Both the position numbers and the translations under genes were made by a program. Shown one piece after another: positions 606-57,528 of a stretch of 64,000 bases of DNA (within the stretch, counting starts at the first letter, position 1; every line of letters begins with the position of its first letter). Source of the DNA: Bacteroidales bacterium (GTDB lineage: Bacteria > Bacteroidota > Bacteroidia > Bacteroidales > GWA2-32-17). The notes under the pieces are model-generated. The model saw only the letters and a program-made list of their open reading frames with translations. It was not told the DNA's origin and made no database searches. Location: assembly GCA_013314715.1 (NCBI GenBank), contig JABUFC010000004.1, positions 6,777 through 70,776 of the forward strand. Direction: 5' to 3'.

Positions 606-1691
606 TTATGATAATTCATGATAAAATAGGTCTCGTTCAATAGGAATAAAATTTTCAGATTTAATCAGTGCTTTTAATTCTTCAACTGTTATCATCGGTT
701 TTTGTTCTTCACTTCCTGCCATGGTGTATATTTTAGTACTATCATATATAGTTCCATCAATATCGTCAGCTCCTGCGTGTAGCAACAAAGCTGCTTTTTC
801 TCTGCCTATCATGGGCCAATAGGCTTTTATGTGTAAAATGTTGTCGAAAAAAATACGACTTAATGCAAATACTTTCAAATCGTCAACTAATGGAAGTTCT
901 TGAATATGCGATAAGAAATTTTGTTGATGTCTGAATTTTAAAGGAATAAAGCAGTTAAAGCCTTGAGTTTCGTCTTGCAAAAGTCTAATGGTATGCATAT
1001 GTTCTATTCTATCATGAATGGTTTCAATATGACCGTATAACATAGTGGCATTCGAAACAATTTTTAAATGGTGTGCTTGTTCATGTACATTTAACCATAT
1101 TTTTGCATCTCCCTTTTCGGGGCATAATTGTTTTCGAACGTTATCATTGAAAATTTCGGCGCCTCCTCCGGCGAGTGCATCTAATCCGGCCTTTTTAAGT
1201 AGTTGCAACGTCTCAGATATACTTTTTCCAGATTTTTTTGCCATAAATTGAATTTCGATGGCTGTAAAAGCTTTAATTTGTAAGGATGGTCGAATGTTTT
1301 TTATGTCATGTAATAAGTTTAAATACCATTCTAAACCTCTTTGTGGATGAACCCCTCCTGTTATATGTATCTCCTTAATGGAGCCGGGTAAGTTATTTAT
1401 TCTATTTATAATGGTATGAATATCATCTTCCCAAAACATTGGTTCGTGCGGATCTTTATGAAAAGAACAAAATTTACATTTATATATGCAATAATTGGAG
1501 GGTTCTACATGTACATTTTGAATGTAATAAACCTTTTTACCAAACAATTTAAATTTAATACTATGAGCTATTTTTATAAGTAGCGACAACGGAGCATTTT
1601 GATATAAGAAAAATGCTTCTTTAGTAGAAATTCTGCCGCCTTCAAGTCGGCGATTAAGAATAGTTTGTACTTTTTTTTCGATGTTAGCCAT
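606..1691 (-). CDS. radical SAM enzyme of the MqnE/MqnC/CofH family (menaquinone via futalosine pathway)
   Basis: 361 aa. CxxxCxxC radical SAM motif lies within EPSNYCIYKCKFCSF, and size and layout are typical of aminofutalosine synthase or cyclic dehypoxanthinyl-futalosine synthase. MqnE and MqnC cannot be separated by eye. Confidence 0.7.
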   Translation of the reverse strand: MANIEKKVQTILNRRLEGGRISTKEAFFLYQNAPLSLLIKIAHSIKFKLFGKKVYYIQNVHVEPSNYCIYKCKFCSFHKDPHEPMFWEDDIHTIINRINNLPGSIKEIHITGGVHPQRGLEWYLNLLHDIKNIRPSLQIKAFTAIEIQFMAKKSGKSISETLQLLKKAGLDALAGGGAEIFNDNVRKQLCPEKGDAKIWLNVHEQAHHLKIVSNATMLYGHIETIHDRIEHMHTIRLLQDETQGFNCFIPLKFRHQQNFLSHIQELPLVDDLKVFALSRIFFDNILHIKAYWPMIGREKAALLLHAGADDIDGTIYDSTKIYTMAGSEEQKPMITVEELKALIKSENFIPIERDLFYHELS

Positions 1692-1758
1692 ATAAACAAA
1701 AAAGTAAAGAGTACAAATGTACCCTTTACTTTTTTGCTATACAAGGATTTTTAAAAAA

Positions 1759-1914
1759 TTATTTTCCTTTTAACTCGTCACTAACGGTTAATTTTTTACG
1801 TCCTTTTGCACGGCGAGCAGCTAAAACTCTACGTCCATTGTGAGTTGACATACGTTCGCGAAAGCCATGTTTATTTTTACGACGACGATTCGAAGGTTGA
1901 AATGTTCTTTTCAT
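1759..1914 (-). CDS. rpmH: 50S ribosomal protein L34
   Basis: Below the ORF-track size cutoff. Hand translation gives [51 protein letters not shown] (51 aa), the canonical L34 sequence. Confidence 0.92.
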
Positions 1915-1940
1915 AAAGCCAAGTCTTTAAAAATGGAATG

Positions 1941-1948
1941 CAAAGGTA
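1941..1948 (-). promoter_or_regulatory. Bacteroidota sigma-A type -7 box (TACCTTTG) upstream of rpmH
   Basis: Reverse complement of caaaggta matches the TAnnTTTG consensus, about 27 nt upstream of the rpmH ATG. Confidence 0.45.
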
Positions 1949-1978
1949 CAATATTTATTTTTAATTGGCAAAAGATTT

Positions 1979-4576
1979 TTAACGTTTTATGATAAAAGTT
2001 TTAGAATAAATATTTTCATCGCTAGTCATTCGTAACAGATAAACGCCTTCTAACCATTTTGAAGTTTGAATATTAATTTCAGTATCTTCGCTTAATAATG
2101 TTTTTTCAAAAACTAATTGACCTGCTGAATTATAAACTTCAATGTTTTGATAAAAATTTTCTTCAGTATTGATGAATATATGTATATAATCATTAGCAGG
2201 ATTGGGAAATACAGAGATATTGATGTCAGTTGGTTCTTCCATAGATGACTTACTGCAATTTAATATTCTTATATTTGGATATGTTTTAGTACAATTATTT
2301 ACATCTGTTACTGTAACAATATAGCCAAGTGAACTATAGCAAAGACCAACAGCTCTTTGTGTTGTTTGGTGCGCAGGGTCATTCCATAAGTAAGTATAAG
2401 GTGGATCGCCATCGGTTACATCAATTTGAGCCCATCCAGTACATTGTCCTTGCTGAGTACAATTAGTCGAAGGTGTTAGGGTAAAGGCTTTTTTACCAAC
2501 TCCGACAGAACCTGTTTTAGTGGCATTACAGCCATCGGTTACAGAAGCATAGTATGTAGCAGGACCTAAGTTATTAACGGTTTGTGTATAACCAACAATA
2601 GTGCCACTTAATGAACTTTTTCTCCATATATAAGTATATGGAGTTTTGCCACCAGAAGGAACTACTGTTACTGAACCCGATTGTGTAACGGTACAGTAAC
2701 TCGATTTTGTAGAACTTAATGATAATGATAATGCAGGTGGGTTTGTTAATGTAACTGTAATAACTACGGTTGCTGGACAAGCATCACGTATGGTACAATA
2801 ATAAGTATTGGCAGGTATGCCCGAAATGGTTTGAGTCGTTTTACTCTGATAAGACCATAAATAGGTATAAGGTGGATTGCCGTTTTGAGGTATAGCTGTT
2901 GCAATACCATCGGTACCACCTGGACAAGGATCGGTCTTGGTATATGTAGCTGTTAGTGGTGGGTTTTCTTCTAAAACATATGTTTTTGTTAGACTACAAT
3001 TATTACTACCCGTAACGGTAACTGTATAATTACCAGCTACAAGATTACTAATAGTTTGGGTTGTAGCTCCGGTATTCCATAAATAAGTATAGGGTTCATT
3101 TCCGGGGGTAGGTGTAGCGGTGATACTTCCATTGTTTCCACCGGGACAAGAAACTTTAGATGCTGTAAAATTAATATCGTCAAAACAACCTATTTTAGCT
3201 AAGAAACCATCCCGATAGTTTATTTTAGGGTTTATTAAAGAATCGTTACCTATATATAATTTGCTTGAATTGAATTCGCCCATGTAATGATAACTTCTTC
3301 CAGTTGAGCTTATTAAGCAGTTCCATGCAGATTCATTTAATGTTCCTTTTGATGCTAGTGTAGAATTTATTTGTCCTGTTGTTGCATCGCCTAAGAGAAT
3401 GCAGGCATCTATTCCGCCTTTTAATGTTAATCCTAAACTGCTAATATTACCACCGTATGAACCAACGGCTGCAAAATTCGATGTTGATGCTACTATGTTA
3501 TACAATTTGTCATCTCCGGTGCTTCCTTTTGTTTTTATCCATTGTAAGGTGCCATCAGAATTATATTTTGCTAAAAGCATATCATTGTATGAACTAGTAT
3601 TCGTTGGATGTAAGTTAGACAAAACACCGTCGGTAGAATCTATAGTTAATTGGTTACAATTAAAATATCCAGCAATATAAACGTTTTCATCAGCATCTAG
3701 ACTGTGTCTAAAAACATAGATGTCATTGCCTATACCCATTATTTTTCGAACCCAAAGGTCTTCACCGTTGCTATTAAGTTTTGCAATTATACCATCTCTC
3801 TTATTATTAGAACTATTAACTGTTTGATTAACAAAAGTTAATGAATTTGAAAAAGTTCCAGAAATAAAAATATCTGTACCATAAGTCGTTACTGTTCGCA
3901 GATAGGATAAAGAAGAGGTTGTTTCGAACATACGATGCCAGATATAATTTCCCCATTCGTCGGTTTTTACAAGAACGTTTTGTCTGGTAGAATATTCATT
4001 GGCAAAACATTTTTGAATACCACCAGCAATATCCGCTTGATTAGAAAAGTTAACTAGAACAAGCACATTATTATCAGCATCTATAGAAAGGTTTCCATTA
4101 ATTTGATGGTCGGCACCTGTTGCTATGGGAAACAGCATGTCTAATTCGCCAACATTAGAAAATTTAGCTACTGCAACATCATTTCCTTCTGCGGTTAATT
4201 GCCATCCATCAATATTGGTGGTGCCGTTAAATGTAAATCCAATGTAAACATATTTTTGATCAGGACTTAAAGCAATGCCATAAACATTTTCGGTACCTGC
4301 ACCGCCAAGTTGTTTAATCCAAATAATTGACCCTGTTGAAGAGTATTTAGCCAAAAACATGTCTTGTAAGCCATTGGTTGTAAAATTATAGGAATCGTGT
4401 GTAATGGTCCCATTAAAATTTCCTGCAATGTAAATATAGCCATTGTTATCAGAAATCATAAATAAGGGGACATTTTGTCCTGGACCTGTAAAATGTTTTT
4501 TCCATAAATAAGTTTGCGAAAATGCAACACTTAAATTTATGGTTAGAACTGCCAAGAGAAAGTATAGCTTTTTCAT
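1979..4576 (-). CDS. secreted T9SS cargo protein with beta-propeller-like repeats, SprB-type PYTYLW repeat modules and a C-terminal sorting domain
   Basis: 865 aa with signal peptide MKKLYFLLAVLTINLSVAFSQ. The N-terminal half has repeated ...YIAG.F.G...DAFLAKY...G...W motifs (SBBP-like). There are four modules containing PYTYLW/PYTYIW. The C-terminus ISVFPNPANDYIHIF...GVYLLRMTSDENIYSKTFIIKR looks like a T9SS CTD. The gene starts 11 nt after the stop of the lasso cyclase gene. Confidence 0.75.
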   Translation of the reverse strand: MKKLYFLLAVLTINLSVAFSQTYLWKKHFTGPGQNVPLFMISDNNGYIYIAGNFNGTITHDSYNFTTNGLQDMFLAKYSSTGSIIWIKQLGGAGTENVYGIALSPDQKYVYIGFTFNGTTNIDGWQLTAEGNDVAVAKFSNVGELDMLFPIATGADHQINGNLSIDADNNVLVLVNFSNQADIAGGIQKCFANEYSTRQNVLVKTDEWGNYIWHRMFETTSSLSYLRTVTTYGTDIFISGTFSNSLTFVNQTVNSSNNKRDGIIAKLNSNGEDLWVRKIMGIGNDIYVFRHSLDADENVYIAGYFNCNQLTIDSTDGVLSNLHPTNTSSYNDMLLAKYNSDGTLQWIKTKGSTGDDKLYNIVASTSNFAAVGSYGGNISSLGLTLKGGIDACILLGDATTGQINSTLASKGTLNESAWNCLISSTGRSYHYMGEFNSSKLYIGNDSLINPKINYRDGFLAKIGCFDDINFTASKVSCPGGNNGSITATPTPGNEPYTYLWNTGATTQTISNLVAGNYTVTVTGSNNCSLTKTYVLEENPPLTATYTKTDPCPGGTDGIATAIPQNGNPPYTYLWSYQSKTTQTISGIPANTYYCTIRDACPATVVITVTLTNPPALSLSLSSTKSSYCTVTQSGSVTVVPSGGKTPYTYIWRKSSLSGTIVGYTQTVNNLGPATYYASVTDGCNATKTGSVGVGKKAFTLTPSTNCTQQGQCTGWAQIDVTDGDPPYTYLWNDPAHQTTQRAVGLCYSSLGYIVTVTDVNNCTKTYPNIRILNCSKSSMEEPTDINISVFPNPANDYIHIFINTEENFYQNIEVYNSAGQLVFEKTLLSEDTEINIQTSKWLEGVYLLRMTSDENIYSKTFIIKR
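2269..3169 (-). repeat. four tandem ~75-80 aa SprB-like repeat modules inside the 865-aa CDS (approximate bounds)
   Basis: Repeated GN.PYTYLWN..(A/S)..TQTISN/G..AG.Y.VTVTD...C peptide units. The PYTYLW codons are visible at about 3085-3100 and 2385-2400. Confidence 0.5.
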
Positions 4577-4587
4577 ATGCTTATATT

Positions 4588-6378
4588 TTAACTTTTTTTA
4601 CGAAAATCGTTTTTATTTGTTGCAAAGTAAATAAATAAACTTATCAACAGTGAACGTAAAATTACTTGAGTTGAAAACTTTTTATCATTAATATGATTTA
4701 TTATTTTTTGGGTTTGAAAGATTTGTTGAATAGAATCTAATTTAAGTGATGATAGTATGATGTTTTCATATGATTGATAGTTTTCTAAAAAACGCTCAAA
4801 TACATCGGCTGATTGAATGGCTTTTTGAGGATTTTGAATAATAGCAGAGGGTAAAATGTTTAGAGATGCCTTACGAATAAGCATCCTATTTCCTAGTTTG
4901 TTAATAAATACATGATTAGGTAGTGAAAAGCAAAATTCTATTAACCTGACATCGGCAGTAGGATCAATAATATTGATACCATATTGGTTTGCTTTTTCGT
5001 TCCAATTAGCGTATCCTGTAGAATGTATTTGTTTAAAAAAATATTGACGACTTAAAATTAAATTTTTAGATTGAAAAGTTGGGTTATAATTTAGTTTGTT
5101 TAAATACGACAAGAAACGATGTTGTTTTATAAATGAGTTATTTAAATAACTGTTTTTAATATAAAAAGGTTGATAAAATGGAAAAATATTTTTAAGCTTT
5201 TGTAACCAAGGAGGTTGTTGGTTCGGCTTTGGATTGAAAAATGGCCATGAATAAGTGAGGTTACCCATTTGACCAATGAGTAAGGTTTGTACATTTTGCT
5301 TGGCAAGTTGTTCAAACATAGAGAAAAGCCAATATTGATTACTTGCATTTCTAACTGGCAGATGATGGGTTTCTATGGTTTTAATTAAGCCTTCAAAAGG
5401 GTTTGTTTTTTCTGCCTTATCGATTATATGAATTATATTGGGGTATTGGTTAGCTACTAATTGTGCAAAGGGAGCTTCGTCGGCATAACGATAAGTAGAT
5501 TTGATTTGTGTTTTAGGATTTTTTACAGTAGCGGTAATAGCAATTAGATTGCGATTTTGCTTTAAAAGTTCAGATGCTGTTATTGCTGTAACAAACGAAG
5601 AGTCGAGCCCACTGCTTAATGTAGAGGCAATGATATGATTGTTGTTAGTATGTTCTTTAATAATGTTTCTGAATAAACAAAGGAAATGTTGAATATAATC
5701 TTCTTCTTTTTTATATTGTATAACTTGATTGAATGGGGGATCCCAATATTTTTGGCTTTGTTTTTGGTTATTCTGAAATTTTATGATGTGTGCCGGATTT
5801 ACTTTAAAAATATTTTGGTATGCAGTTTCGTCTGCTGTTCCATTAAAACCAACTGCTAAGCCAGCAAGATGTAAATAATTTAATTCAAATGTAGAGTTGC
5901 TAATTTTCTTTAATAATTCAATATTTGTTGAAAACGAAAATGAGTTATTAACAAAATGATAATAATAATTAAACATGCCCATATGGTCGCGAGCAACGGA
6001 AATTTCTTTTGTTGTTGTGTTTAATGTTAAAAACATCCATTTGCCAAGACATTTTTTTAATCCTTTTTCTTGCCATTTCTTGTATGCTTCGAATATAATT
6101 TTACTGTCGTGATATTGTCGAGGTAAGGATAATTCTTGACATAATTCATTACGATTATGCAAATGGGCAATAATAAAAATAATTTCGTTTTGATTTTCGA
6201 ATAAAAAGCTTTGATTTTTTTGATATTTTTCAGGTAATTGAGCGTATATTATTACTTCAATAAAAGATTCTTTTATTAAAATTTTATTGGTAAAAGCGTA
6301 TATAGAAGGTTGCTTCCATATTGATATGAGTGGAGAAGGGGTATTAGAAAACCTTATTTGCCCTGCAACGATATACAT
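4588..6378 (-). CDS. asparagine synthetase-like lasso peptide cyclase (C protein)
   Basis: 596 aa with PP-loop ATP pyrophosphatase motif SSGLDSS. The N-terminus MYIVAGQ lacks the Cys2 glutaminase nucleophile of true AsnB. It lies 1 nt downstream of the B2 gene. Confidence 0.8.
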   Translation of the reverse strand: MYIVAGQIRFSNTPSPLISIWKQPSIYAFTNKILIKESFIEVIIYAQLPEKYQKNQSFLFENQNEIIFIIAHLHNRNELCQELSLPRQYHDSKIIFEAYKKWQEKGLKKCLGKWMFLTLNTTTKEISVARDHMGMFNYYYHFVNNSFSFSTNIELLKKISNSTFELNYLHLAGLAVGFNGTADETAYQNIFKVNPAHIIKFQNNQKQSQKYWDPPFNQVIQYKKEEDYIQHFLCLFRNIIKEHTNNNHIIASTLSSGLDSSFVTAITASELLKQNRNLIAITATVKNPKTQIKSTYRYADEAPFAQLVANQYPNIIHIIDKAEKTNPFEGLIKTIETHHLPVRNASNQYWLFSMFEQLAKQNVQTLLIGQMGNLTYSWPFFNPKPNQQPPWLQKLKNIFPFYQPFYIKNSYLNNSFIKQHRFLSYLNKLNYNPTFQSKNLILSRQYFFKQIHSTGYANWNEKANQYGINIIDPTADVRLIEFCFSLPNHVFINKLGNRMLIRKASLNILPSAIIQNPQKAIQSADVFERFLENYQSYENIILSSLKLDSIQQIFQTQKIINHINDKKFSTQVILRSLLISLFIYFATNKNDFRKKS

Positions 6379-6379
6379 T

Positions 6380-6817
6380 TTATGGGAAATAATAAGTGGC
6401 TAATGTAACAAAATCTTTTCCTCCTTTTTCTACTAAAAAATATCCGTTGCTTTCTATCCAGACGTGTGCAATGAGTTTTTGGTTTTCTTTTGTGAGACCC
6501 ATGTATAAATGGTATGGAATTTTGTATTTGCGAAGAAAATAAGCAGCGGTTAACGATTGTTCAAAACATTTGTTACGCCAAATGCTTAATCGGGCAGCGC
6601 GTAAGATAGATTTTTTAATAATAACAAGTTTTTCTTTATCATATTTGAAAAAATATGACAATGTAGTGTTTTGTTGTTTATTGCCCATTTTTTTTTCAAT
6701 AATTTTAAAGGGCATCCATAAAATATACCAGCGAATATAAAAGGAATATATAAGTGCCATTATAAGCAAATATTTTTCAAACGTTGGTAATAATATAAAC
6801 TTTTTAAGTGAATACAA
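6380..6817 (-). CDS. lasso peptide biosynthesis B2 protein (transglutaminase-like cysteine protease)
   Basis: 145 aa with a hydrophobic N-terminal segment. The catalytic-type motifs NKCFEQSLTAAYFL and LIAHVWIESNG fit the Cys...His arrangement of McjB-type leader peptidases. Confidence 0.8.
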   Translation of the reverse strand: MYSLKKFILLPTFEKYLLIMALIYSFYIRWYILWMPFKIIEKKMGNKQQNTTLSYFFKYDKEKLVIIKKSILRAARLSIWRNKCFEQSLTAAYFLRKYKIPYHLYMGLTKENQKLIAHVWIESNGYFLVEKGGKDFVTLATYYFP

Positions 6818-6820
6818 TTT

Positions 6821-7114
6821 TTATGCTTTTAATTGTATAATAATCATTTTTTTTTGGTAAAGTAAATTCAGAAATTGAAGTGTATCTTTTTCGCACTTAT
6901 TTTTCTCGACTTCAAATTTTAACATTAAATGATGTATAAGAACTTCGAATGCAATAGGTTCGGCTATCAATTCCCAAATGTATGCTCCTACTTTGTTGAA
7001 TGAGTAATATTGACCTGTATCTGGATTTAATAACATTACTTCTTTGTCTAAATAAGTAAAAGCAATATTTGGATTACGCCTTATTATGGAATGTTGACTA
7101 ATTTCTTGGCTCAT
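6821..7114 (-). CDS. PqqD family protein, lasso B1 / RiPP recognition element
   Basis: 97 aa. LLNPDTGQYYSFNKVGAYIWELI... is the typical PqqD-like pattern, and the gene sits directly upstream of B2 (split-B layout). Confidence 0.7.
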   Translation of the reverse strand: MSQEISQHSIIRRNPNIAFTYLDKEVMLLNPDTGQYYSFNKVGAYIWELIAEPIAFEVLIHHLMLKFEVEKNKCEKDTLQFLNLLYQKKMIIIQLKA

Positions 7115-7934
7115 AGTTAAAATATTTAATCATTGAATTATGATTTTCAAAAATAGTATTTATTTGATTTCTGTTGAGTATGGTTTTGTAATATTCACTT
7201 TTACCGGTATGAAAAAATACTTGTTGATAAAGCGATTTTTCTTCGAAGCCAAATTGTTGTTCTTGTTTTGAAAGATTTTCGAAGGAGGCAAAATGTATGG
7301 CATCCGATAGCTTTTCTGTTGTATAATTTTTACCTATAAATGTAAGAATTTTAGCAAATGTTTCATATGGACGATGAAGCATTTCTTCATATTTTACAAT
7401 TATTAGAGGTATTTCGTTTTGCGATAACCAGCTTTCTATATGTTTAGACCAGCTACCAATGATTTGTGGCAATTGATTCAAATATTTTTTTTTCGGAACC
7501 GAAAGCTGATAATGATCTTGATTCATTATGTCAATAGTTTTGTCGATACTAATACCTAAATGTCGAGAAAAAGAAATGGCTACATCAAACGGATTCCGTA
7601 CAAGATAAATTACAGCTTTTGAGTTTTGAGTTGGTAAAAAGGGCATTCCGAAAAGTTGTTTTTGGTACATGTCGTGAATCTTAACTGGAAAAAGGGATTC
7701 ATTACAATAATTCGAAAATTTCTGTAGTCTTAGTTCATGCAATTCTTTATAGGTTAGTTCACTTACATCAATATCGGCTTCATCTTCTAAAAAGCTTTTA
7801 GAGCTATAAATAGGAATAGCAATTTGGTTTATATTGGTTATTCCAAACAAAAAACGCGCTAAAAAAATTCTACACCATGTATTACCCGATTTGGGATAAG
7901 ACGCTATCCATATAATGGATTGGTTCATTGTCAT
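7098..7934 (-). CDS. PAPS-dependent sulfotransferase
   Basis: 5'-phosphosulfate binding loop SYPKSGNTW and 3'-phosphate binding motif LVRNPFDVAISFS are present. The start was trimmed from the track start at 7973 to the ATG at 7934, which forms an ATGA overlap with the kinase stop (7931-7933). The ATG at 7928 is an alternative. Confidence 0.8.
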   Translation of the reverse strand: MTMNQSIIWIASYPKSGNTWCRIFLARFLFGITNINQIAIPIYSSKSFLEDEADIDVSELTYKELHELRLQKFSNYCNESLFPVKIHDMYQKQLFGMPFLPTQNSKAVIYLVRNPFDVAISFSRHLGISIDKTIDIMNQDHYQLSVPKKKYLNQLPQIIGSWSKHIESWLSQNEIPLIIVKYEEMLHRPYETFAKILTFIGKNYTTEKLSDAIHFASFENLSKQEQQFGFEEKSLYQQVFFHTGKSEYYKTILNRNQINTIFENHNSMIKYFNYEPRN

Positions 7935-8872
7935 TTGACAAGTTTTAAACATTCCATTATAAATGAATCCCATTTTTCTGAAGTGATGCTGTGCGAACGA
8001 TGAATGATATATATATCGGTTTGATTAGCTAAGGTGGTTAACGTTTCAAATACATTTTGACGAAACATTGATTCAACTATGTTTCTACGATAAATATATT
8101 TCGATAATAGAATAAATTTTTTAACTCCATGAATTTGTTCTATAAAAGTATTGGGAGTAACATGGTTTTGTAATATAAAAATAGTGGAAGGACTTTGAAT
8201 TTGAGTGTTAAAAAAGGAATGACAGTTAATTAAATATTTGTTAATATCAGGATGAACTTGCTTATTTATAGATGCATGATAGCGTTCGATTGCATCGAGC
8301 CAGAGCTTGATATCAGGAAATGCAGGTAAGGCTTTAATGAGCTGCTGTTCTTTTCTGACAGCAACAATATCATCTGCAAAAAAACGAGCTTGATGTTTTT
8401 GAATAAAATGATATAATAACGTGGATTTTCCACTACCAGAGTTCCCAAGTAAGAGTAAGCTTTTATCATTATATACAACACCTGATGCGTGAATTGGAAT
8501 TTGGTTATAATAGGCGCATATAATAGCCATAATTGGGCCATATAGATATTGTTCAAATTGATGTTTATTAGTAAATGAGGTAAATAAGGTTTGTCTTGTT
8601 TTATCAAAAAAGAATTGAGTAAATTTTGTTCGAAGTTCAAAAGCTGTTTTGTTTGCTTTAATGTGTATTTTATCTATAATAGGTTTTTCAATATCATAGG
8701 ATGCAGCTTTTTTCTTTATATATAAATCAGCTTGCTCGAACGATGTAGCTAAAAATTTTGATAGCTCTATCTCCGACGAAATTCTGAATCCAAATGCTAA
8801 ATAAGTGTACAATGACAATTTTTTTATTCTTAGAATTTTATGCAAATTTACGTTAAAAATATCAATATTCAT
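7931..8872 (-). CDS. HprK-related serine kinase of lasso/RiPP clusters
   Basis: 313 aa with P-loop LLLGNSGSGKSTLL, as in HPr kinase/phosphorylase. The N-terminal YLAFGFRISSEIELSKF region is typical of HprK-related kinases. It is the first gene of the operon. Confidence 0.7.
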   Translation of the reverse strand: MNIDIFNVNLHKILRIKKLSLYTYLAFGFRISSEIELSKFLATSFEQADLYIKKKAASYDIEKPIIDKIHIKANKTAFELRTKFTQFFFDKTRQTLFTSFTNKHQFEQYLYGPIMAIICAYYNQIPIHASGVVYNDKSLLLLGNSGSGKSTLLYHFIQKHQARFFADDIVAVRKEQQLIKALPAFPDIKLWLDAIERYHASINKQVHPDINKYLINCHSFFNTQIQSPSTIFILQNHVTPNTFIEQIHGVKKFILLSKYIYRRNIVESMFRQNVFETLTTLANQTDIYIIHRSHSITSEKWDSFIMECLKLVK

Positions 8873-8967
8873 AGGTAATATAATAGAAGCTTTATATTTA
8901 TACTTTTAATTTTTTAGAAAAAACGATTTATTTTTTTCAAGTTTTCAAAATTTATTAACATTTTGTT

Positions 8968-8975
8968 CAAAATTA
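8968..8975 (-). promoter_or_regulatory. candidate -7 box (TAATTTTG) for the lasso operon
   Basis: Reverse complement of caaaatta matches TAnnTTTG, about 95 nt upstream of the kinase ATG. Confidence 0.35.
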
Positions 8976-8988
8976 AGAACCTTATACT

Positions 8989-8996
8989 TATTTTTG
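8989..8996 (+). promoter_or_regulatory. candidate -7 box (TATTTTTG) for the MORN-repeat gene
   Basis: Matches TAnnTTTG 18 nt upstream of the ATG at 9014. It shares a divergent promoter region with the lasso operon. Confidence 0.4.
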
Positions 8997-9013
8997 TGCA
9001 AATATATTAGATT

Positions 9014-11479
9014 ATGATACGATATATTCTTTTGGTTTTCTTAACTTTAATGATAAGTGATGCTATAGCTCAAGAAGTATCATTAGAACAATTAGAAGAA
9101 CGCGACAATAATACTTACTATTTAAAACAGACGGGTGAGCCTTATACAGGGCAATGTATTGGAAGATGGCCTAATGGCAAAAAGAAATATGAGGGAAATT
9201 TTAAAAAAGGATTAAAAGATAAAGTTTGGCGTGAATTCGACGAAGACGAATTAAAAATATTTGAGGGGAATTATAAAGATGGAACATTAAATGGAATAGG
9301 TACTTTTTATTATCCTTATGGACAAATTAAAGAGCAAGGACAATATAAAAACGATCGTAGGGTAGGCAAGTGGATAGAATGGGATCAATTTGGAAAAAAT
9401 AGTAAAGAGGTTATTTATCAAACTCAAAATGAGTGGTATTCTAAAACACAAATTAAAAGTGAATATACACTCAAAAATGGGAAAAAACACGATAAATATA
9501 TTGAGTATTTTGAAGATGGTAAGCCTAAGTTAATTATTAACTATGCAGATGGTAAGAAAAACGGACAAGAAATTTCCTTTTATTCAAATGGATACAAACA
9601 ATACATAAAGACTTATGCTAATGATACTCTTCATGGTTACTATGCCGAATTTTTTGAAAATGGTAAAGCAAAATTGAAGGGCAATATGAATAAGGGTTAT
9701 AAAGAAGGTAAATGGATTACATACGATGAACAAGGGAATGTTCTTGCCGAAGATGAATATAAAACAACAATAAAATATTTTCCTAATGGAGATAAAGCAG
9801 AAATAGCTACTTATAAAAATAATAAAAAAGAAGCTGAGTGGCTATGGTGGTTCGAAAACGGACAGCTTAAGTATAAAGAAAATTACAAAAATGGAGTAGC
9901 GGATGGATTATGGGCAGCGTGGTACGAGAATGGAGAGAAAAAATTTGAAGGCGAAATGAAAAATGGAAAAAAGCATGGTAAATGGTTAGAATATTATTCA
10001 AATGGTAAAGTAATGTCCGAAGAGGTATATACAGATGGCGTTTTGAATGGACCCAAAATACTATACCATAAAAATGGACAGAAAAAACTCGAAGTTACTT
10101 ACGAAAATGGTAAAAAAATTGGAACACAAATCGAATATCATGAAAATGGAGTTAAATCATTTGAAGGTGTTTGTAAAGACGGAAAATTAAATGGAGCCGC
10201 TGTTTATTACCATGATAATGGTAAAAAGGCTCAAGAAGGTAACTTTGTAAACGATCGTCGTGAAGGCATATGGAAAAGCTGGGATAAAAATGGTCAATCC
10301 TCTGCCGATTTGATTTTTAAGACCGTTAAAGAAACTTATAACAATGGTAAACCTAAGCTTGAAGGAACTACATGCAACGATAAAAAAGATGGTTTGTGGA
10401 TGTGGTGGTACGAAACGGGACAGCCCAAAGCAATGGAAACATATGTTATGGGTAAACTTCATGGCGAAAGCAAATCATGGTACGAAGATGGTCGCGAAGC
10501 CTTTATTGGCAATTATGTTAATGGAAAGAAAGATGGACTCATACAGGCTTGGTACCAAAATCGTCAGCCCCTGTTAATCGAAACTTGGGAAAAAGGTGTT
10601 CAAGTTGGAGAATATAAAGAATGGTACGAAAATGGGCAAATAAAAACAGAAGGGAATTTTATTGATGGATTAAAAGATGGTGTTTTCAGAACCTATTATG
10701 AAAATGGTCAAAAAGCATCGGAAGTAACTTACAATAAAGATAAAGAAGACGGAAATTATACAGAATGGTTTAAAAATGGACAAAAGAAAGTTGAAGGAAC
10801 ATCAAAATTAGGGAAGCGTCAAGGAACATGGACCGAGTGGTTCGATAATCAACAAAAAAAATCAGAAGGAGTCTATTTAAATGGTCAGAAAGAAGGTAAA
10901 TGGCAATATTTTTTCGAGGACGGAAAAACTCAATGCGAAGAAAATTATAAAGATGGAAAACTTACCGGGAAACGTGTTACTTATTATGCTAATGGCAAAA
11001 AAGAAAGCGAAGAATATTATTCCATGGGGCTAAAAAATGGACAATGTTTAACATGGTACGAAAATGGTAATCGTAAGTCTGTTGAAACATGGCTCAATGG
11101 AAAATTAAACGGACAAGCATCTTATTATTACGAATCGGGTAAAGATAAAATGACCGGAACGTTTAAAGATGACAAACAAGAAGGACGTTGGATAGAATAT
11201 CATGAATCAACAGGTAAAAAAGCTTCAGAAGGGAGTTATTTAAAAGGTATGAAAAATGGTTTATGGGTAGAATATTATTCTTCGGGCGCTAAAGCTTGTG
11301 AAGGGCAATATAAAAACGATAAACGACAAGGCATGTGGACTTGTTTTTACGAAAATGGAACTAAGCAAATTGAGGGAGCATATAATCAAGATTTGAAAGA
11401 AGGTGCCTGGATTGAATTTGATGAGGGTGGCAATAAAACCAATCAATATATTTTTAAAGCAGGAAATGTGGTGAAATAA
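9014..11479 (+). CDS. secreted MORN-variant (YwqK-like) repeat protein
   Basis: 821 aa with signal peptide MIRYILLVFLTLMISDAIAQ. The rest is about 30+ tandem 23-aa units of the form G.W..(W/Y)YENGQ.K.EG.Y.NGKK.G. Confidence 0.75.
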   Translation: MIRYILLVFLTLMISDAIAQEVSLEQLEERDNNTYYLKQTGEPYTGQCIGRWPNGKKKYEGNFKKGLKDKVWREFDEDELKIFEGNYKDGTLNGIGTFYYPYGQIKEQGQYKNDRRVGKWIEWDQFGKNSKEVIYQTQNEWYSKTQIKSEYTLKNGKKHDKYIEYFEDGKPKLIINYADGKKNGQEISFYSNGYKQYIKTYANDTLHGYYAEFFENGKAKLKGNMNKGYKEGKWITYDEQGNVLAEDEYKTTIKYFPNGDKAEIATYKNNKKEAEWLWWFENGQLKYKENYKNGVADGLWAAWYENGEKKFEGEMKNGKKHGKWLEYYSNGKVMSEEVYTDGVLNGPKILYHKNGQKKLEVTYENGKKIGTQIEYHENGVKSFEGVCKDGKLNGAAVYYHDNGKKAQEGNFVNDRREGIWKSWDKNGQSSADLIFKTVKETYNNGKPKLEGTTCNDKKDGLWMWWYETGQPKAMETYVMGKLHGESKSWYEDGREAFIGNYVNGKKDGLIQAWYQNRQPLLIETWEKGVQVGEYKEWYENGQIKTEGNFIDGLKDGVFRTYYENGQKASEVTYNKDKEDGNYTEWFKNGQKKVEGTSKLGKRQGTWTEWFDNQQKKSEGVYLNGQKEGKWQYFFEDGKTQCEENYKDGKLTGKRVTYYANGKKESEEYYSMGLKNGQCLTWYENGNRKSVETWLNGKLNGQASYYYESGKDKMTGTFKDDKQEGRWIEYHESTGKKASEGSYLKGMKNGLWVEYYSSGAKACEGQYKNDKRQGMWTCFYENGTKQIEGAYNQDLKEGAWIEFDEGGNKTNQYIFKAGNVVK

Positions 11480-11518
11480 TTTTCAATTTTCAAATAAACA
11501 CTTTATTAACTTAATGCT

Positions 11519-11526
11519 TACCTTTG
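11519..11526 (+). promoter_or_regulatory. -7 box TACCTTTG
   Basis: Matches TAnnTTTG(C) 24 nt upstream of the ATG at 11550. Confidence 0.45.
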
Positions 11527-11549
11527 CAAAAAATTAAATTCTTAGTATC

Positions 11550-12803
11550 ATGGATATTTTTGAAAAAATTAAAAAACAAAAAGGTCCTTTAGGACAATAT
11601 CAATCCATTGCACATGGGTATTTTGCATTTCCAAAGCTCGAAGGCGAAATAGCACCTCGTATGATGTTTAGAGGTAAAGAAGTCCTTACATGGAGCTTGA
11701 ATAATTATTTAGGATTAGCCAATCATCCCGAAGTTCGAAAAGCTGATGCCGAAGGAGCTCAAAAATACGGCTTGGCTTATCCGATGGGGGCACGTATGAT
11801 GTCGGGACATACTTCACTACACGAGGAATTAGAGCAAAAACTTGCTGCATTTGAAAAGAAAGAAGATGCATACTTGCTCAATTATGGTTACCAAGGTATG
11901 GTTAGCATTATCGATGCATTAGTAAATCGCAACGATGTTATTGTTTACGATAGCGAAGCACATGCATGTATTCTTGATGGATTGCGACTTCATATGGGAA
12001 AACGTTTTGTTTATCCTCACAACAATATCGAAAAACTAAAAGTGCAGTTAAAACATGCTCAAGCTATAGTTGAAAAAACAGGTGGTGGAATTTTAGTTAT
12101 AACCGAAGGGGTATATGGAATGGCTGGGGATCTTGGAAAGTTAGATGAAATAGTGAAGCTAAAAAAAGAGTTTAACTTTAGATTTATGATTGATGATGCT
12201 CATGGCTTTGGAACCATGGGAAATACCGGTGCCGGCACATCTGAACATTTTGGTGTCATGGATGAAGTAGATATTTATTTTGCTACATTTGCTAAGGCGA
12301 TGGCTGGTATTGGTGGATTTGTCGCTTCAACCCAAGAAGTTATTGACTATTTGCGTTACAACTTACGTTCGCAAATCTTTGCAAAATCTTTACCCATGCC
12401 TATGGTATATGGTGCACTTAAACGTCTTGAATTATTACAGACTCAACCTCAACTTCGAGAGAAACTTTGGACAATTGTAAAAGCATTACAAAATGGGTTA
12501 AAAGAAAAAGGATTTAATATAGGAAATACTCAATCGCCTGTTACACCTGTTTTCTTGCAAGGTGGCGTAGTTGAGGCAACCAATATTGTTTTTGAATTAA
12601 GAGAAGTATATAATATTTTCTGTTCTATTGTTGTTTATCCTGTAGTACCTAAAGATGTTATAATGTTGCGTATTATTCCTACAGCTGTTCATACCTTAGA
12701 CGATGTTAAATATACAATCGATGCATTTAGTGAAATTCAGGAAAATTTAAAAGCAGGGAAATACAAAAAAGAAAATGTTCCATTTTTTTCTATAAATAAT
12801 TAA
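11550..12803 (+). CDS. PLP-dependent alpha-oxoamine synthase family acyltransferase (Kbl / serine palmitoyltransferase / BioF-like)
   Basis: 417 aa with NYLGLANHPEV, DDAHGFG and the PLP-lysine context ATFAKAMAG. Substrate (glycine, serine, cysteate or alanine) cannot be assigned by eye. Confidence 0.85.
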   Translation: MDIFEKIKKQKGPLGQYQSIAHGYFAFPKLEGEIAPRMMFRGKEVLTWSLNNYLGLANHPEVRKADAEGAQKYGLAYPMGARMMSGHTSLHEELEQKLAAFEKKEDAYLLNYGYQGMVSIIDALVNRNDVIVYDSEAHACILDGLRLHMGKRFVYPHNNIEKLKVQLKHAQAIVEKTGGGILVITEGVYGMAGDLGKLDEIVKLKKEFNFRFMIDDAHGFGTMGNTGAGTSEHFGVMDEVDIYFATFAKAMAGIGGFVASTQEVIDYLRYNLRSQIFAKSLPMPMVYGALKRLELLQTQPQLREKLWTIVKALQNGLKEKGFNIGNTQSPVTPVFLQGGVVEATNIVFELREVYNIFCSIVVYPVVPKDVIMLRIIPTAVHTLDDVKYTIDAFSEIQENLKAGKYKKENVPFFSINN

Positions 12804-28999: not shown

Positions 29000-29024
29000 T
29001 AAAAGTTAGTAATTAAAAAAAAAG

Positions 29025-29097
29025 TGACTCCGGAGGGACTCGAACCCTCAACCCTCAGAACCGGAATCTGATATTCTATCCATTGAACTACGGAGCC
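29025..29097 (-). tRNA. tRNA-Arg (anticodon CCG)
   Basis: Reverse complement GGCTCCGTAGTTCAATGGATAGAATATCAGATTCCGGTTCTGAGGGTTGAGGGTTCGAGTCCCTCCGGAGTCA folds by hand into a cloverleaf. Acceptor is GGCTCCG/CGGAGTC, anticodon stem TCAGA/TCTGA, loop TTCCGGT, and T-arm GAGGG-TTCGAGT-CCCTC. No CCA is encoded. Confidence 0.9.
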
Positions 29098-32183: not shown

Positions 32184-32447
32184 TTACTTTATTTTAAGTT
32201 GAGGATAGTGAGTTTTTAAATATTCAATGACTTCATGAAGTGAATGAAATGTTTTTAATGTGTCATCTATTTTACAAAAAGGACCATCTTTACATTCACC
32301 AAAACAGCGTGTGCCTTTAAAATCGATAATATGTTCTAGATGATTTTGATGAAGGTATTCATTTATTTCTTTTACTAAATATTTATTCCCTCGTGCAAAA
32401 CAAGAACTACCTAAGCAAATATTTATTTTTATCTTTTCAATCGACAT
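32184..32447 (-). CDS. small thioredoxin-like [2Fe-2S] ferredoxin
   Basis: 87 aa with the Cx4C...Cx3C pattern (CLGSSCFARG ... RCFGECKDGP), as in NuoE-type clusters. It is the first gene of the minus-strand sensor operon. Confidence 0.7.
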   Translation of the reverse strand: MSIEKIKINICLGSSCFARGNKYLVKEINEYLHQNHLEHIIDFKGTRCFGECKDGPFCKIDDTLKTFHSLHEVIEYLKTHYPQLKIK

Positions 32448-44600: not shown

Positions 44601-45684
44601 AGTCGTTCATGGCATTGCCTGCTGCTTGCGTGATGGTTATATTATTAATAATGGTAGCAAGGGCATCGGCATCGGTCAGGTCGCTTCCACCTTCGCGTAT
44701 GGTAAATTGCCAAACCTGAACTCCATCGGAGGTAGTGTTTATACTGGCATCGTTTTCTAACGAAGAAACTGTTGTTGCTTCTCCATCTGCTGTAATAAAA
44801 TCGGTTTCGATTGAAAGTGTTCCAGTACCTTGAATGCTAAAGTTGTATGGATTTTCGTCGGCATCGCTATTGGCAATGCTTATGGTTGCTGTTCGTAATC
44901 CGGCGGCGCTTGGATCAAAAGTAACTTGAAAAGTTGTGCTGCCCGATGCTGCAATGCTGTTTGACGGGATGGCTGTTACTGAAAAATCGGATGCATGCGT
45001 ACCGCCAATTACCACATAGGGGCTTGCTCCTGTTAAATTCAATGCAGCAGTTCCTGTATTCTGAATAGTAAATGTGCGAACAACACTTCCGCTCGAAACG
45101 TTGACACTTCCGAAATCGGTATGGTCAGCGGTAGAGGGTGTGGCATCACCATTGGCAATGGAAATTCCATTCCCTTGGATATTAATTTCGGGAGCGGAGA
45201 CGGCGTTCAGAGTAACAATAATATCATGTACATAAACTGCTTCGCTTGGAGATGATAAACGAAGCTTTGTAGAAGAGCTTGTGTTATAGGAATATGTGTA
45301 TGTAGCACCTATGGTGCCAATTGCGCTGAATGTTGTAAGATCTTGCCATGAACTTCCATCATAATACTGTAATTTTAAGGTTCTTCCGGCAGCTCCGGCA
45401 GCTAAATGAACTTCAACTGTACCAACAGAGCTTAAAGTTGGTAATTCAACAATACCCGACGAAGATTTCATCTGTATTCTTCCAGCACTACATGTACCAG
45501 TAGCAGCTGCAGCATTTGCAACAATGCACTCTGTCATTGAAACGGTTCCAGCAGTAATAACTTGTGTGTAAGATCCATAACTAACATGATTTGTCCAGCT
45601 CTGAATATTTTCATTAATTTGACCTTTCCCAATAAAAAAGCCAAATAATAAAATAATTAATATTTTATACTTTAACATATTCAT
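41689..45684 (-). CDS. very large secreted surface protein, T9SS cargo
   Basis: About 1331 aa from the ATG at 45684 ([17 protein letters not shown]); the track start is TTG 45720. It is Thr/Ser/Asn/Gly-rich with beta-rich repeats. A segment [28 protein letters not shown] resembles choice-of-anchor-D/ASH-type Ig domains. The C-terminus ...[22 protein letters not shown] is T9SS CTD-like. Confidence 0.7.
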
Positions 45685-45786
45685 GTTTATACTACTACTA
45701 AAACGTTTAAAACTACACAAAGGTTGCTTTGTTATAGTTAAATAATTGTTAATAAATAAGGAAAACTATTTACTGTTTTCGGTTGT

Positions 45787-57521: not shown

Positions 57522-57528
57522 CTTAAAA

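What the first reader, a model, noticed from the sequence alone, without database searches (positions are those of the whole stretch)
4588..8872. Lasso-peptide-type RiPP operon carrying both an HprK-like kinase and a PAPS sulfotransferase
Five same-strand genes are packed with essentially no intergenic space: an ATGA overlap at 7931-7934, a 17-nt overlap at 7098-7114, and gaps of 3 and 1 nt. In transcription order they encode: (1) a P-loop HprK-related kinase (GNSGSGKST); (2) a sulfotransferase with both PAPS-binding motifs (YPKSGNTW, RNPFDVAISF); (3) a PqqD-like RRE (B1); (4) a transglutaminase-like B2 protease (CFEQS...AHVWIE); (5) an Asn-synthetase-like cyclase (SSGLDSS, no Cys2 glutaminase nucleophile). 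Split-B lasso machinery plus an HprK-like kinase is the paeninodin-type architecture, where the kinase O-phosphorylates the precursor's C-terminal Ser. A sulfotransferase translationally coupled to that kinase predicts a second or alternative ~+80 Da tailoring step. To my knowledge no O-sulfated lasso peptide has been characterised, and lasso products from Bacteroidota are essentially unexplored.
Basis: partly seen in the sequence, partly recalled or inferred. Interest (0 to 1): 0.85.

Follow-up and report, generated by a model that had tools for sequence, protein, structure and literature searches.

The report
Kinase–sulfotransferase lasso operon without a precursor
This is a real lasso-peptide maturation operon in a Bacteroidales genome that carries a kinase–sulfotransferase pair found in many bacterial phyla and chemically unstudied, but this copy has no precursor-peptide gene nearby and is instead followed by a conserved secreted surface protein.

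Summary
Five tightly packed minus-strand genes encode an HprK-like kinase (K), a PAPS-type sulfotransferase (ST), a PqqD-like leader-binding protein (B1), a lasso B2 protease and an Asn-synthetase-like cyclase (C). All catalytic motifs are intact.

1. The K–ST pair is not a novelty of this locus. Among 80 genomes with an ST homologue, 67 have K directly upstream and 61 have K plus lasso genes. They span about 11 phyla. The combination was noted in the literature in 2014 and 2016, but the ST was never characterised.

2. Related loci encode precursors with a WxxP leader. Of 39 candidates, 31 end in Ser, the residue that homologous kinases phosphorylate. No precursor gene exists in the 64-kb window or in any of about 10 loci of its own clade.

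3. A sixth gene was missed. An 865-aa surface protein exported by the type IX secretion system (T9SS), here called X, starts 11 nt after the cyclase. It has an SBBP β-propeller, SprB repeats and a T9SS sorting domain. X is conserved with the operon. In sister Bacteroidales clusters it directly follows the precursor gene.

Best reading: a paeninodin-like lasso pathway with a distal, unidentified precursor and an anionic phospho/sulfo C-terminal tail. Sulfation is inferred, not shown.

The parts
7931..8872 (-). K: HprK-related P-loop kinase (313 aa)
   Evidence: Pfam and NCBIfam hits are weak: Hpr_kinase_C at E 1.7e-4 and TIGR04352 HprK_rel_A at E 1.2e-8, both below curated cutoffs. A 42-sequence profile hits the HPr kinase catalytic domain in the PDB at E 6e-8, across LHA...GxSGxGKS...DD. 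The Walker A motif GNSGSGKST and the FFADD motif are conserved in the clade.
7098..7934 (-). ST: PAPS-dependent sulfotransferase (278 aa from the ATGA-overlap start; the longest ORF extends to 7973)
   Evidence: Sulfotransfer_1 scores 78 bits against a cutoff of 22. YPKSGNTW, KIHD, RNPFDVAISF and FFHTGK are invariant or near-invariant across 30 homologues. The best PDB profile hits are Teg12, Teg14 and StaL.
6821..7114 (-). B1: PqqD-like RiPP recognition element (97 aa)
   Evidence: PF05402 scores 60 bits against a cutoff of 23.4. The best NCBIfam model is the Bacillus-type lasso PqqD, NF033536, at 69 bits, below its cutoff of 80.
6380..6817 (-). B2: lasso leader peptidase, transglutaminase-like (145 aa, TTG start)
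   Evidence: NF033537 lasso_biosyn_B2 scores 66.7 bits against a cutoff of 33. The Cys (NKCFEQS) and His (AHVWIE) are conserved in the clade.
4588..6378 (-). C: Asn-synthetase-like lasso macrolactam synthetase (596 aa)
   Evidence: Asn_synthase and GATase_7 domains. The best NCBIfam model is lasso cyclase NF033535 at 180 bits, below its cutoff of 525. There is no Cys2. The PP-loop motif SSGLDS is conserved.
1979..4576 (-). X: T9SS-secreted surface protein (865 aa) made of a signal peptide, an SBBP β-propeller of about 460 aa, four SprB repeats and a Por_Secre_tail sorting domain
   Evidence: Pfam finds SprB x4 and Por_Secre_tail. Homologues of the N-terminal domain carry PF06739 SBBP. The gene starts 11 nt after the stop of C. 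It is conserved directly downstream of C in every window-clade locus that extends far enough. Orthologues sharing the N-terminal domain directly follow the precursor gene in 12 other Bacteroidales loci.
8873..9013 (.). 141-nt divergent intergenic region upstream of K, presumed to hold the operon promoter
   Evidence: It contains no credible ORF. Two minus-strand TAnnTTTG motifs lie at 8968-8975 and 8999-9006, but this motif is not enriched in the window (109 found, 113 expected). The evidence for a promoter is therefore weak.

Best explanation
The region is a six-gene operon, K–ST–B1–B2–C–X, of a Bacteroidales bacterium. It belongs to the paeninodin-like (kinase-bearing, split-B) branch of lasso-peptide biosynthesis.

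Inferred mechanism:
- B1 binds the WxxP leader of a ribosomal precursor.
[quoted passage not shown] This has been shown for homologous kinases.
- ST is translationally coupled to K. It transfers sulfate from PAPS to a hydroxyl of the same peptide. The target could be a second hydroxyl (Tyr, Ser or Thr in the tail) or the phospho-Ser itself.
- B2 removes the leader.
- C closes the ring of 8-9 residues, from residue 1 to a Glu or Asp, by ATP-dependent macrolactam formation.

The product would be a lasso peptide with a strongly anionic tail.

In this clade the precursor gene is not next to the enzymes. It must lie elsewhere in the genome, as it lies 4-7 kb away in some relatives. X is a cell-surface β-propeller and SprB-repeat protein exported by the type IX system. 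It is a conserved partner of these clusters in Bacteroidales. Its role is unknown; a receptor, a display partner or simple co-regulation are candidates.

Shown here: gene identities, intact catalytic motifs, conservation of the module, and precursor features in relatives. Inferred: every chemical step in this organism, the sulfation target, and the existence of a precursor in trans.
For: Domain and family hits for all five enzymes.

Junctions that allow translational coupling.

The same K–ST–B1–B2–C–X block occurs in divergent relatives. Protein identity to the window runs from 24% to 80%, depending on the gene and the locus. The flanks differ: NQR genes in L001, Cpn10 in L003, an aminotransferase downstream in L093. 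All ORFs and catalytic motifs are intact.

K sits directly upstream of ST in 67 of 80 GTDB loci. Sixty-one loci have K plus at least one of B1, B2 or C. A 4-nt overlap is possible at 33 of 75 K–ST junctions, and 70 of 75 lie within ±16 nt.

There are 39 precursor candidates in 32 related loci. In the Bacteroidota-centred subset that I aligned (A3, 14 sequences) W, P, the Thr two residues before the predicted cleavage site, and Gly2 are invariant. Of the 39 candidates, 31 end in Ser. Further weaker candidates with the same pattern turned up later.

WxxP is the hallmark of paeninodin-like leaders, and HprK-like kinases phosphorylate a Ser of the precursor (PMC13381572; PMC8498205).

Precursors lie 4-7 kb from the enzymes in L042 and L075. 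Distal precursors therefore occur in this family.
Against: No precursor gene was found in the 64-kb window, in L090 (2.9 kb beyond the left edge), or in any window-clade locus.

There is no ABC exporter, nucleotidyltransferase or deacetylase in the window, although many relatives have them.

The biosynthetic genes diverge faster than their neighbours. Against L001, K is 47%, C 51% and B2 52% identical, while X is 80%, CofH 68% and L34 100%. This could mean relaxed constraint.

K, B1 and C score below the curated NCBIfam cutoffs.

Nothing here shows which atom is sulfated, or that the peptide is the acceptor at all.
Confidence: 0.65

Rival explanations
1. Orphan or decaying cluster. The precursor gene was lost in the ancestor of this clade. 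The five enzymes are remnants with no product, retained only by chance or drifting towards loss.
For: No precursor was found in any of about 10 clade loci. The closest clade that has a precursor is L007, arranged K-ST-B1-B2-C-X1-A-X2. The window clade looks like that arrangement with A-X2 deleted. The enzymes diverge faster than the neighbouring genes.
Against: Five ORFs stay intact, with compact junctions and every catalytic motif conserved, in lineages as divergent as 24-46% identity (L006, L093), and in two different downstream contexts. Unselected genes would not survive that much divergence without frameshifts or stop codons.
Confidence: 0.12
2. Non-canonical substrate. In this clade the machinery, or only K and ST, modifies something other than a small lasso precursor. 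Candidates are the co-transcribed surface protein X or another protein's C-terminal Ser.
For: X is the only conserved neighbour and occupies the position next to where the precursor sits in sister clusters. The review PMC8498205 reports that homologous kinases need little beyond a C-terminal Ser.
Against: X has a Sec signal peptide and a T9SS sorting domain. It therefore leaves the cytoplasm, where the ATP- and PAPS-dependent enzymes work. X ends in ...FIIKR, not Ser. The precursor profile finds nothing inside X. B1, B2 and C retain lasso-type features. Homologues of X also occur without lasso genes (L101-L104).
Confidence: 0.07
3. The sulfotransferase does not tailor the peptide core. It might sulfate a sugar added to the phospho-Ser (as the hexose is added in pseudomycoidin-type products), provide self-protection, or act on an unrelated metabolite.
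For: An NTP_transf_5 nucleotidyltransferase is present in 29 of 80 K–ST loci. Eleven of the 80 ST loci lack K, and 7 of these have tandem ST paralogues. The family is therefore not exclusively linked to lasso clusters.
Against: Fifty-one of 80 loci, the window included, have K–ST without the nucleotidyltransferase within reach. The conserved partner of ST is K, with stop/start overlap. The nearest solved relatives sulfate peptide natural products directly.
Confidence: 0.12

Closest known systems
Paeninodin biosynthetic cluster (Paenibacillus dendritiformis C454) and paeninodin-like lasso clusters of Bacillota
   Same: Split B1/B2, an Asn-synthetase-like cyclase and an HprK-like kinase that phosphorylates the precursor's C-terminal Ser. 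Related loci here show the WxxP leader and a C-terminal Ser (PMC8498205, PMC13381572). A putative sulfotransferase at the cluster start was already noted in some Bacillota clusters (PMC8498205).
   Different: The host is Bacteroidales. There is no precursor and no ABC exporter in the locus. ST is translationally coupled to K. A T9SS surface protein is a conserved sixth gene.
Pseudomycoidin cluster (Bacillus pseudomycoides DSM 12442)
   Same: A kinase-bearing lasso cluster in which the phospho-Ser is further decorated (PMC8498205). The same nucleotidyltransferase family (NTP_transf_5) accompanies K–ST in 29 of 80 loci.
   Different: The window has no nucleotidyltransferase. The second tailoring enzyme here is a PAPS sulfotransferase, whose product is unknown.
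Proteobacterial kinase-bearing lasso clusters (for example Sphingobium yanoikuyae, with polyphosphorylated products)
   Same: A kinase acts on a C-terminal Ser, and the gene order differs from that in Bacillota (PMC8498205). Many K–ST loci found here are proteobacterial, for example the Shewanella locus L009 (A-B1-K-ST-C) and the Sphingorhabdus soli locus L041.
   Different: The role of ST was not addressed in that work, as far as the held literature shows.
Teg12, Teg14 and StaL glycopeptide sulfotransferases
   Same: These are the best solved-structure relatives of the ST profile (E 8e-27 to 3e-20). They share the PKxGNTW and RNPxD motifs and are PAPS-dependent O-sulfotransferases acting on peptide natural products.
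   Different: They act on non-ribosomal glycopeptide aglycones (phenolic hydroxyls) and are not coupled to a kinase.
LPP (linear polyphosphorylated peptide) clusters of Bacillota
   Same: An HprK-like kinase plus a discrete recognition element act on a ribosomal precursor. These clusters often sit next to paeninodin-like lasso clusters (PMC13381572).
   Different: LPP clusters use a YxxP leader and a signal-peptidase-like protease, and they lack B2 and C. The window has B2 and C, and its relatives use WxxP leaders.

Membership tests
Lasso peptide biosynthetic gene cluster (split-B type) | Asn-synthetase-like macrolactam synthetase without the glutaminase Cys2 | tested here: met
   Asn_synthase and GATase_7 domains. 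The best NCBIfam model is lasso cyclase NF033535 at 180 bits, against 115 for AsnB, though both are below the curated cutoffs. The N-terminus is MYIVAGQ, and the SSGLDS motif is conserved.
Lasso peptide biosynthetic gene cluster (split-B type) | B2 transglutaminase-like Cys protease | tested here: met
   NF033537 scores 66.7 bits against a cutoff of 33. The Cys and His are conserved in the clade.
Lasso peptide biosynthetic gene cluster (split-B type) | B1 PqqD-like recognition element | tested here: met
   PF05402 scores 60.2 bits against a cutoff of 23.4. The lasso-specific model NF033536 is the best NCBIfam hit but scores 69.4 bits, below its cutoff of 80.
Lasso peptide biosynthetic gene cluster (split-B type) | Precursor gene with a Y/WxxPxL leader, a Thr two residues before the cleavage site, and a core with Asp or Glu at position 7-9 | tested here: not met
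   None was found in the 64-kb window or in window-clade loci by regex or profile search. The feature is present in 32 or more related loci. The rest of the genome could not be searched.
Lasso peptide biosynthetic gene cluster (split-B type) | Threaded lasso product | not testable with these tools
   This requires isolation of the peptide and MS or NMR.
Paeninodin-like (kinase-bearing) lasso clusters | HprK-related kinase in the cluster | tested here: met
   The profile matches the HPr kinase catalytic domain at E 6e-8. The His, Walker A and DD motifs are conserved. Single-sequence Pfam and NCBIfam hits are below cutoff.
Paeninodin-like (kinase-bearing) lasso clusters | WxxP leader and a C-terminal Ser as phosphate acceptor | tested here: inconclusive
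   There is no precursor in the window. In relatives that share the K–ST module, W and P are invariant in the 14 aligned precursors, and 31 of 39 candidates end in Ser.
Paeninodin-like (kinase-bearing) lasso clusters | Dedicated ABC exporter (D) | tested here: not met
   No homologue is present in the window. One is present in 23 of 80 related loci.
PAPS-dependent sulfotransferases (Sulfotransfer_1) | 5'-phosphosulfate loop PKSGxTW, 3'-phosphate motif RNPxDxxxS, and a catalytic His | tested here: met
   PF00685 scores 78 bits against a cutoff of 22. The motifs are invariant across 30 homologues and in the clade.
PAPS-dependent sulfotransferases (Sulfotransfer_1) | Sulfate transfer to the lasso precursor or product | not testable with these tools
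   This needs an in vitro assay or high-resolution MS of the product.
Type IX secretion cargo (protein X) | N-terminal signal peptide plus a C-terminal Por_Secre_tail sorting domain | tested here: met
   PF18962 scores 57 bits against a cutoff of 27, at residues 789-863. The signal-peptide-like N-terminus, ending ...AFSQ, is conserved in all orthologues.

The most novel reading that the evidence does not exclude
K and ST act in sequence on the same C-terminal Ser, for example by capping the phosphate with sulfate to give a phosphosulfate, or by building a mixed phospho/sulfo tail. This would be a modification not described for any ribosomal peptide. In Bacteroidales the resulting anionic lasso peptide would work as a pair with the T9SS-exported β-propeller/SprB surface protein X, as ligand and receptor or as a displayed peptide. 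That would explain why X always follows the precursor or the cyclase. In the window's clade the system has become split, with the precursor encoded in trans.
Probability: 0.12. Interest if true: 0.8.

Novelty: new variant of a known kind. Interest (0 to 1): 0.5.

Why it matters
Lasso peptides are a well-studied scaffold, yet no paper in the library searched reports a sulfated one.

This analysis shows that the kinase–sulfotransferase pair is not a curiosity of one genome. It is a translationally coupled module in lasso clusters of about 11 phyla, almost always with a precursor whose tail ends in Ser. That makes the chemistry of the pair a well-defined open question. Are two competing +80 Da modifications made, or two sites modified, or a sulfate placed on the phosphate? 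Several cultured strains are available to test this.

The Bacteroidales-specific link to a type IX-secreted β-propeller/SprB protein is, as far as I could find, undescribed. It hints at a cell-surface role for these peptides.

The window itself is a poor exemplar because its precursor is missing from the locus.

Tried and rejected
- Small-ORF inventory of all intergenic gaps of the window. There are no credible precursors. The 60-aa ORF at 88-270 contains YPFP, but its would-be core has no acidic residue and it lies inside a gene that runs off the window.
- Leader-motif regex searches (strict, loose W..P) and profile searches built from 12 and then 39 precursors. There were no hits in the window clade. 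The one marginal hit (63149-63298, E 0.044) is antisense to a T9SS gene, has no start codon and no leader motif, and was rejected.
- Precursor fused to the C-terminus of C or the N-terminus of X. Rejected: there are no profile hits, the C-termini of C are not conserved, and X starts with a signal peptide.
- Looking for precursor–X pairs elsewhere, using the N-domain of X against metagenome contigs. Stand-alone X homologues (L101-L104) have no precursor upstream.
- Extending beyond the right end of the window by protein look-up. The protein was not on record.
- Single-sequence search of K against the PDB gave only P-loop noise. A profile was needed.
- Single-sequence AlphaFold model of K had pLDDT 35 and was unusable, so no fold search was run.
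- Sigma-70 promoter and terminator scan, and the Bacteroidetes TAnnTTTG motif. Neither exceeds chance.
- Zhu et al. 2016 (JBC) and Tietz et al. 2017 could not be read because they are not held. Their content is cited only through the review PMC8498205 and through PMC13381572.
- dN/dS was not attempted. The closest relatives are 47-62% identical in the enzymes, so synonymous sites are saturated.

Full report
OBSERVATION

The five minus-strand ORFs exist exactly where stated. K is at 7931-8872 (313 aa). ST is at 7098-7973 as the longest ORF. B1 is at 6821-7114 (97 aa), B2 at 6380-6817 (145 aa, TTG start) and C at 4588-6378 (596 aa). I read the junctions directly. The ATGA stop/start overlap of K and ST is at 7934-7931. 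ST and B1 overlap by 17 nt. The B1/B2 gap is 3 nt and the B2/C gap is 1 nt. With the ATGA start the ST is 278 aa, which is also how it was called on an independent contig (P0001; L090).

Pfam gives Sulfotransfer_1 (E 9e-22), PqqD (2.5e-16), Transglut_core3 (3.6e-15), and Asn_synthase plus GATase_7 (1.4e-19 and 2.4e-11). K gets only a weak Hpr_kinase_C hit (1.7e-4). NCBIfam places B2 in lasso_biosyn_B2 above its cutoff (66.7 bits against 33). For B1 the best model is the Bacillus-type lasso PqqD. For C the best model is the lasso isopeptide cyclase (180 bits, against 115 for glutamine-hydrolysing AsnB). Both of these are below their curated cutoffs. C begins MYIVAGQ, so it has no Cys2 nucleophile.

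K AND ST

A 42-sequence profile of K matches the catalytic domain of HPr kinase/phosphorylase in the PDB (E 6e-8). The match runs across the His, the GxSGxGKS P-loop and the DD motif. A single-sequence search had shown only P-loop noise.

A 30-sequence profile of ST has PKSGNTW, K..H and RNP.D...S as invariant columns. Its best solved relatives are Teg12, Teg14 and StaL, the PAPS-dependent sulfotransferases of glycopeptide antibiotics (E 8e-27 to 3e-20), followed by cytosolic aryl sulfotransferases. Both enzymes therefore look catalytically competent.

THE MODULE IS WIDESPREAD

Homologues of ST at 43-63% identity lie in the same K–ST–B1–B2–C arrangement on metagenomic and MAG contigs annotated as Bacteroidales. 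A Shewanella isolate has A–B1–K–ST–C together with a nucleotidyltransferase, B2 and an ABC exporter.

I then fetched 80 loci from GTDB species representatives using the ST alignment. I annotated them with HMMs built from the window and its relatives.
- 67 of 80 have K immediately upstream of ST on the same strand. Three more have K just downstream.
- 61 have K plus at least one of B1, B2 or C within the flanks held.
- A start codon giving a 4-nt overlap with the K stop exists at 33 of 75 junctions, and 70 of 75 lie within ±16 nt. I picked the start nearest the K stop, which biases the gaps downward. Even so, the excess at exactly -4 is not explained by that choice.
- No K–ST fusions were seen.

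Going by the record titles, the hosts span Bacteroidota (28 loci), Pseudomonadota, Acidobacteriota, Chloroflexota, Cyanobacteria, Gemmatimonadota, Verrucomicrobiota, Actinomycetota, Spirochaetota, Myxococcota/Desulfobacterota and Negativicutes. The 11 loci without adjacent K are mostly alphaproteobacterial, and 7 of them have tandem ST paralogues.

An NTP_transf_5 nucleotidyltransferase accompanies the module in 29 of 80 loci, an ABC exporter in 23 and a polysaccharide deacetylase in 13. The window has none of these.

PRECURSORS IN RELATIVES

A leader-motif regex and then an iterated profile found 39 candidates in 32 loci. In the 14 Bacteroidota-centred sequences that I aligned, W and P of a WxxP motif, a Thr two residues before the predicted cleavage site, and Gly at core position 2 are invariant. 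A Glu or Asp lies at core position 8-9. Of the 39 candidates, 31 end in Ser. The complete exceptions have Ser or Thr within the last five residues; one apparent exception (L022) is cut off at the end of its contig.

Weaker hits inspected by eye add more of the same pattern. Examples are seven precursors in Amylibacter marinus that all end in Ser, four in Lunatimonas salinarum, and an array of about a dozen in Aquirufa.

WxxP is reported as nearly invariant in paeninodin-like lasso leaders. HprK-like kinases of these systems phosphorylate, and can polyphosphorylate, a Ser of the linear precursor (PMC13381572; PMC8498205). The K–ST clusters are therefore a cross-phylum extension of the paeninodin-like family. 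The one universal feature of their cores is a hydroxyl at the C-terminal end.

Thirteen of the 14 aligned precursors also carry a Tyr in the core. In about 10 of them it lies two to five residues after the ring Glu or Asp, in an acidic context. That would suit an aryl-type sulfotransferase. Many non-Bacteroidota cores have no Tyr.

THE WINDOW HAS NO PRECURSOR

I found no precursor in any of these places:
- the intergenic gaps;
- six-frame regex searches, strict and loose;
- profile searches of every stop-to-stop ORF of at least 15 aa in the window and in L090, which extends 2.9 kb beyond the window's left edge.

The single marginal hit is antisense to another gene and lacks a start codon and a leader. 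The same negative result holds for every locus of the window's clade, each with up to ±10 kb of flank: L001, L003-L006, L091-L093, L096-L100 and L105. The absence is therefore a property of the clade and not an assembly accident.

Distal precursors do occur in this family, 4-7 kb from the enzymes in L042 and L075. I could not search the rest of the genome.

A SIXTH CONSERVED GENE

Eleven nt after the stop of C begins an 865-aa ORF, 1979-4576. It has a signal peptide, an N-terminal domain of about 460 aa whose homologues carry the SBBP β-propeller repeat PF06739, four SprB repeats, and a Por_Secre_tail type IX sorting domain. I call it X.

X follows C in every window-clade locus that extends far enough. 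This holds even where the next gene differs: L34 and CofH in most loci, an aminotransferase in L093.

In more distant Bacteroidales clusters (ST 33-39% identical) the order is C(reverse)–K–ST–B1–B2–A–X. There X starts about 10-12 nt after the precursor's stop codon (L018 and L125). The HMM match covers the N-terminal domain, not just the repeats or the sorting domain (L015, L018, L020, L027, L035, L036, L038, L048, L059, L069, L088). L125 shows the same pairing; its X carries a CHU_C sorting domain and is followed by a PorP/SprF gene. L007 is intermediate, with K–ST–B1–B2–C–X1–A–X2.

X-like proteins at 34-40% identity also occur without lasso genes or precursors (L101-L104). SBBP and T9SS proteins are common, with at least three T9SS cargos in this window alone. 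X is therefore not exclusive to lasso clusters. Even so, its same-strand adjacency in three different gene orders argues for a functional or regulatory link. I found no paper connecting lasso peptides and type IX secretion.

IS THE OPERON ALIVE?

Compared with L001, X is 80% identical, CofH 68% and L34 100%. By contrast K is 47%, B1 55%, B2 52%, C 51% and ST 62%. The enzymes evolve faster than their neighbours.

Even so, across seven loci down to 24-46% identity every ORF is intact. The Walker A and DD motifs of K, the three ST motifs, the Cys and His of B2 and the SSGxDS motif of C are all conserved. That pattern fits a functional, fast-evolving secondary-metabolite operon better than a pseudogene array. 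I give the orphan reading about 0.12.

MECHANISM

The best-supported reading is a paeninodin-like pathway.
- B1 binds a WxxP leader.
- K phosphorylates the tail Ser of the linear precursor. This is shown for homologues and inferred here.
- ST adds sulfate from PAPS (inferred).
- B2 cleaves the leader.
- C forms the macrolactam.

The acceptor of the sulfate is open. K–ST coupling is much tighter than ST–nucleotidyltransferase co-occurrence (67 loci against 29 of 80), so a sugar acceptor cannot be the general answer. The only universal hydroxyl is the tail Ser. This leaves three options: competing +80 Da modifications, a second and less conserved site (Tyr in Bacteroidales), or sulfation of the phosphate. 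None is tested.

Export is also unexplained, because the window has no ABC exporter.

COMPARISON WITH WHAT IS KNOWN, AND NOVELTY

An HPr kinase and a sulfotransferase in lasso clusters were noted in 2014 (PMC4289311). They were noted again for Bacillota clusters by Zhu et al. 2016, as summarised in PMC8498205, which says that work on these enzymes was in the pipeline. Searches for sulfated or sulfation together with lasso peptide returned nothing relevant through 2026. Subscription journals are not fully covered, so I cannot exclude a report there.

The architecture is therefore known. Apparently new are:
- its breadth and the translational coupling of K and ST;
- the link to Ser-terminal precursors across phyla;
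- the Bacteroidales association with a T9SS β-propeller/SprB protein;
- a clade, including this window, with no precursor in the locus.

I rate it a new variant of a known kind, with interest 0.5.

Noticed in passing
window 1979-4576 (-); also L018:11944-15641, L125:1876-6328, L007:13682-20864: A family of T9SS cargo proteins (SBBP β-propeller, SprB repeats and a sorting domain) lies directly downstream of the lasso precursor or cyclase in Bacteroidales K–ST clusters, in three different gene orders. In L125 the protein carries a CHU_C sorting domain and is followed by a PorP/SprF gene.
   Followed up: yes
window 606-8872 compared with L001: The lasso enzymes are much more diverged than their immediate neighbours. 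K is 47%, C 51%, B2 52%, B1 55% and ST 62% identical, against X 80%, CofH 68% and L34 100%. This points to fast evolution or relaxed constraint on the enzymes.
   Followed up: partly
L030:13525-14795; L045:8512-11048; L029 (seven ORFs between 8.8 and 18.4 kb); L086:14118-18268: Some K–ST clusters carry arrays of precursors. An Anaerolineales MAG has five tandem Cys-rich ones, all ending in Ser. A Bryobacterales MAG has three, Amylibacter marinus seven, and Aquirufa nivalisilvae about a dozen.
   Followed up: partly
P0126-P0138; L038, L059, L069: One predicted core, AAGNPGGGDDYVTFGFSES, is nearly identical across many independent Bacteroidales metagenome contigs although the leaders differ. This suggests strong selection on that product.
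   Followed up: no
L049:2594-6333 and 9060-12784; L037:8148-9993; L065, L075, L009: Some loci hold duplicated modules. L049 has two K–ST–C sets. Others (L037, L065, L075, L009) have a second K paralogue that is not coupled to an ST.
   Followed up: no
window 9014-11479 (+): An 821-aa MORN-repeat (MORN_2) protein is transcribed divergently from the operon. It is not conserved at this position in relatives, where NQR genes, Cpn10 or other genes sit instead.
   Followed up: partly
window 25337-28087 (+), 62746-63831 (-), 41689-45720 (-): The window holds two further T9SS cargo genes (916 aa; 361 aa with a BNR/Ycf48-like propeller). It also holds a 1343-aa protein with a HYDIN/VesB-like Ig domain. 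T9SS cargo is dense in this genome, which tempers arguments based on adjacency.
   Followed up: partly
window 29024-29097 (-) and 57451-57522 (+): tRNA-Arg(CCG) and tRNA-Cys(GCA) genes.
   Followed up: yes
window 32184-32447 (-): An 87-aa Cys-rich ORF (CxxxC...CxxxC pattern) lies in the largest intergenic gap of the window. It was not analysed.
   Followed up: no
L007:5274-9060; L018:4934-6744: Bacteroidales K–ST clusters often carry a polysaccharide deacetylase, and L007 also has a TMEM260-like glycosyltransferase just upstream of K. This hints at glycan-type decoration in those relatives. Both are absent from the window.
   Followed up: partly
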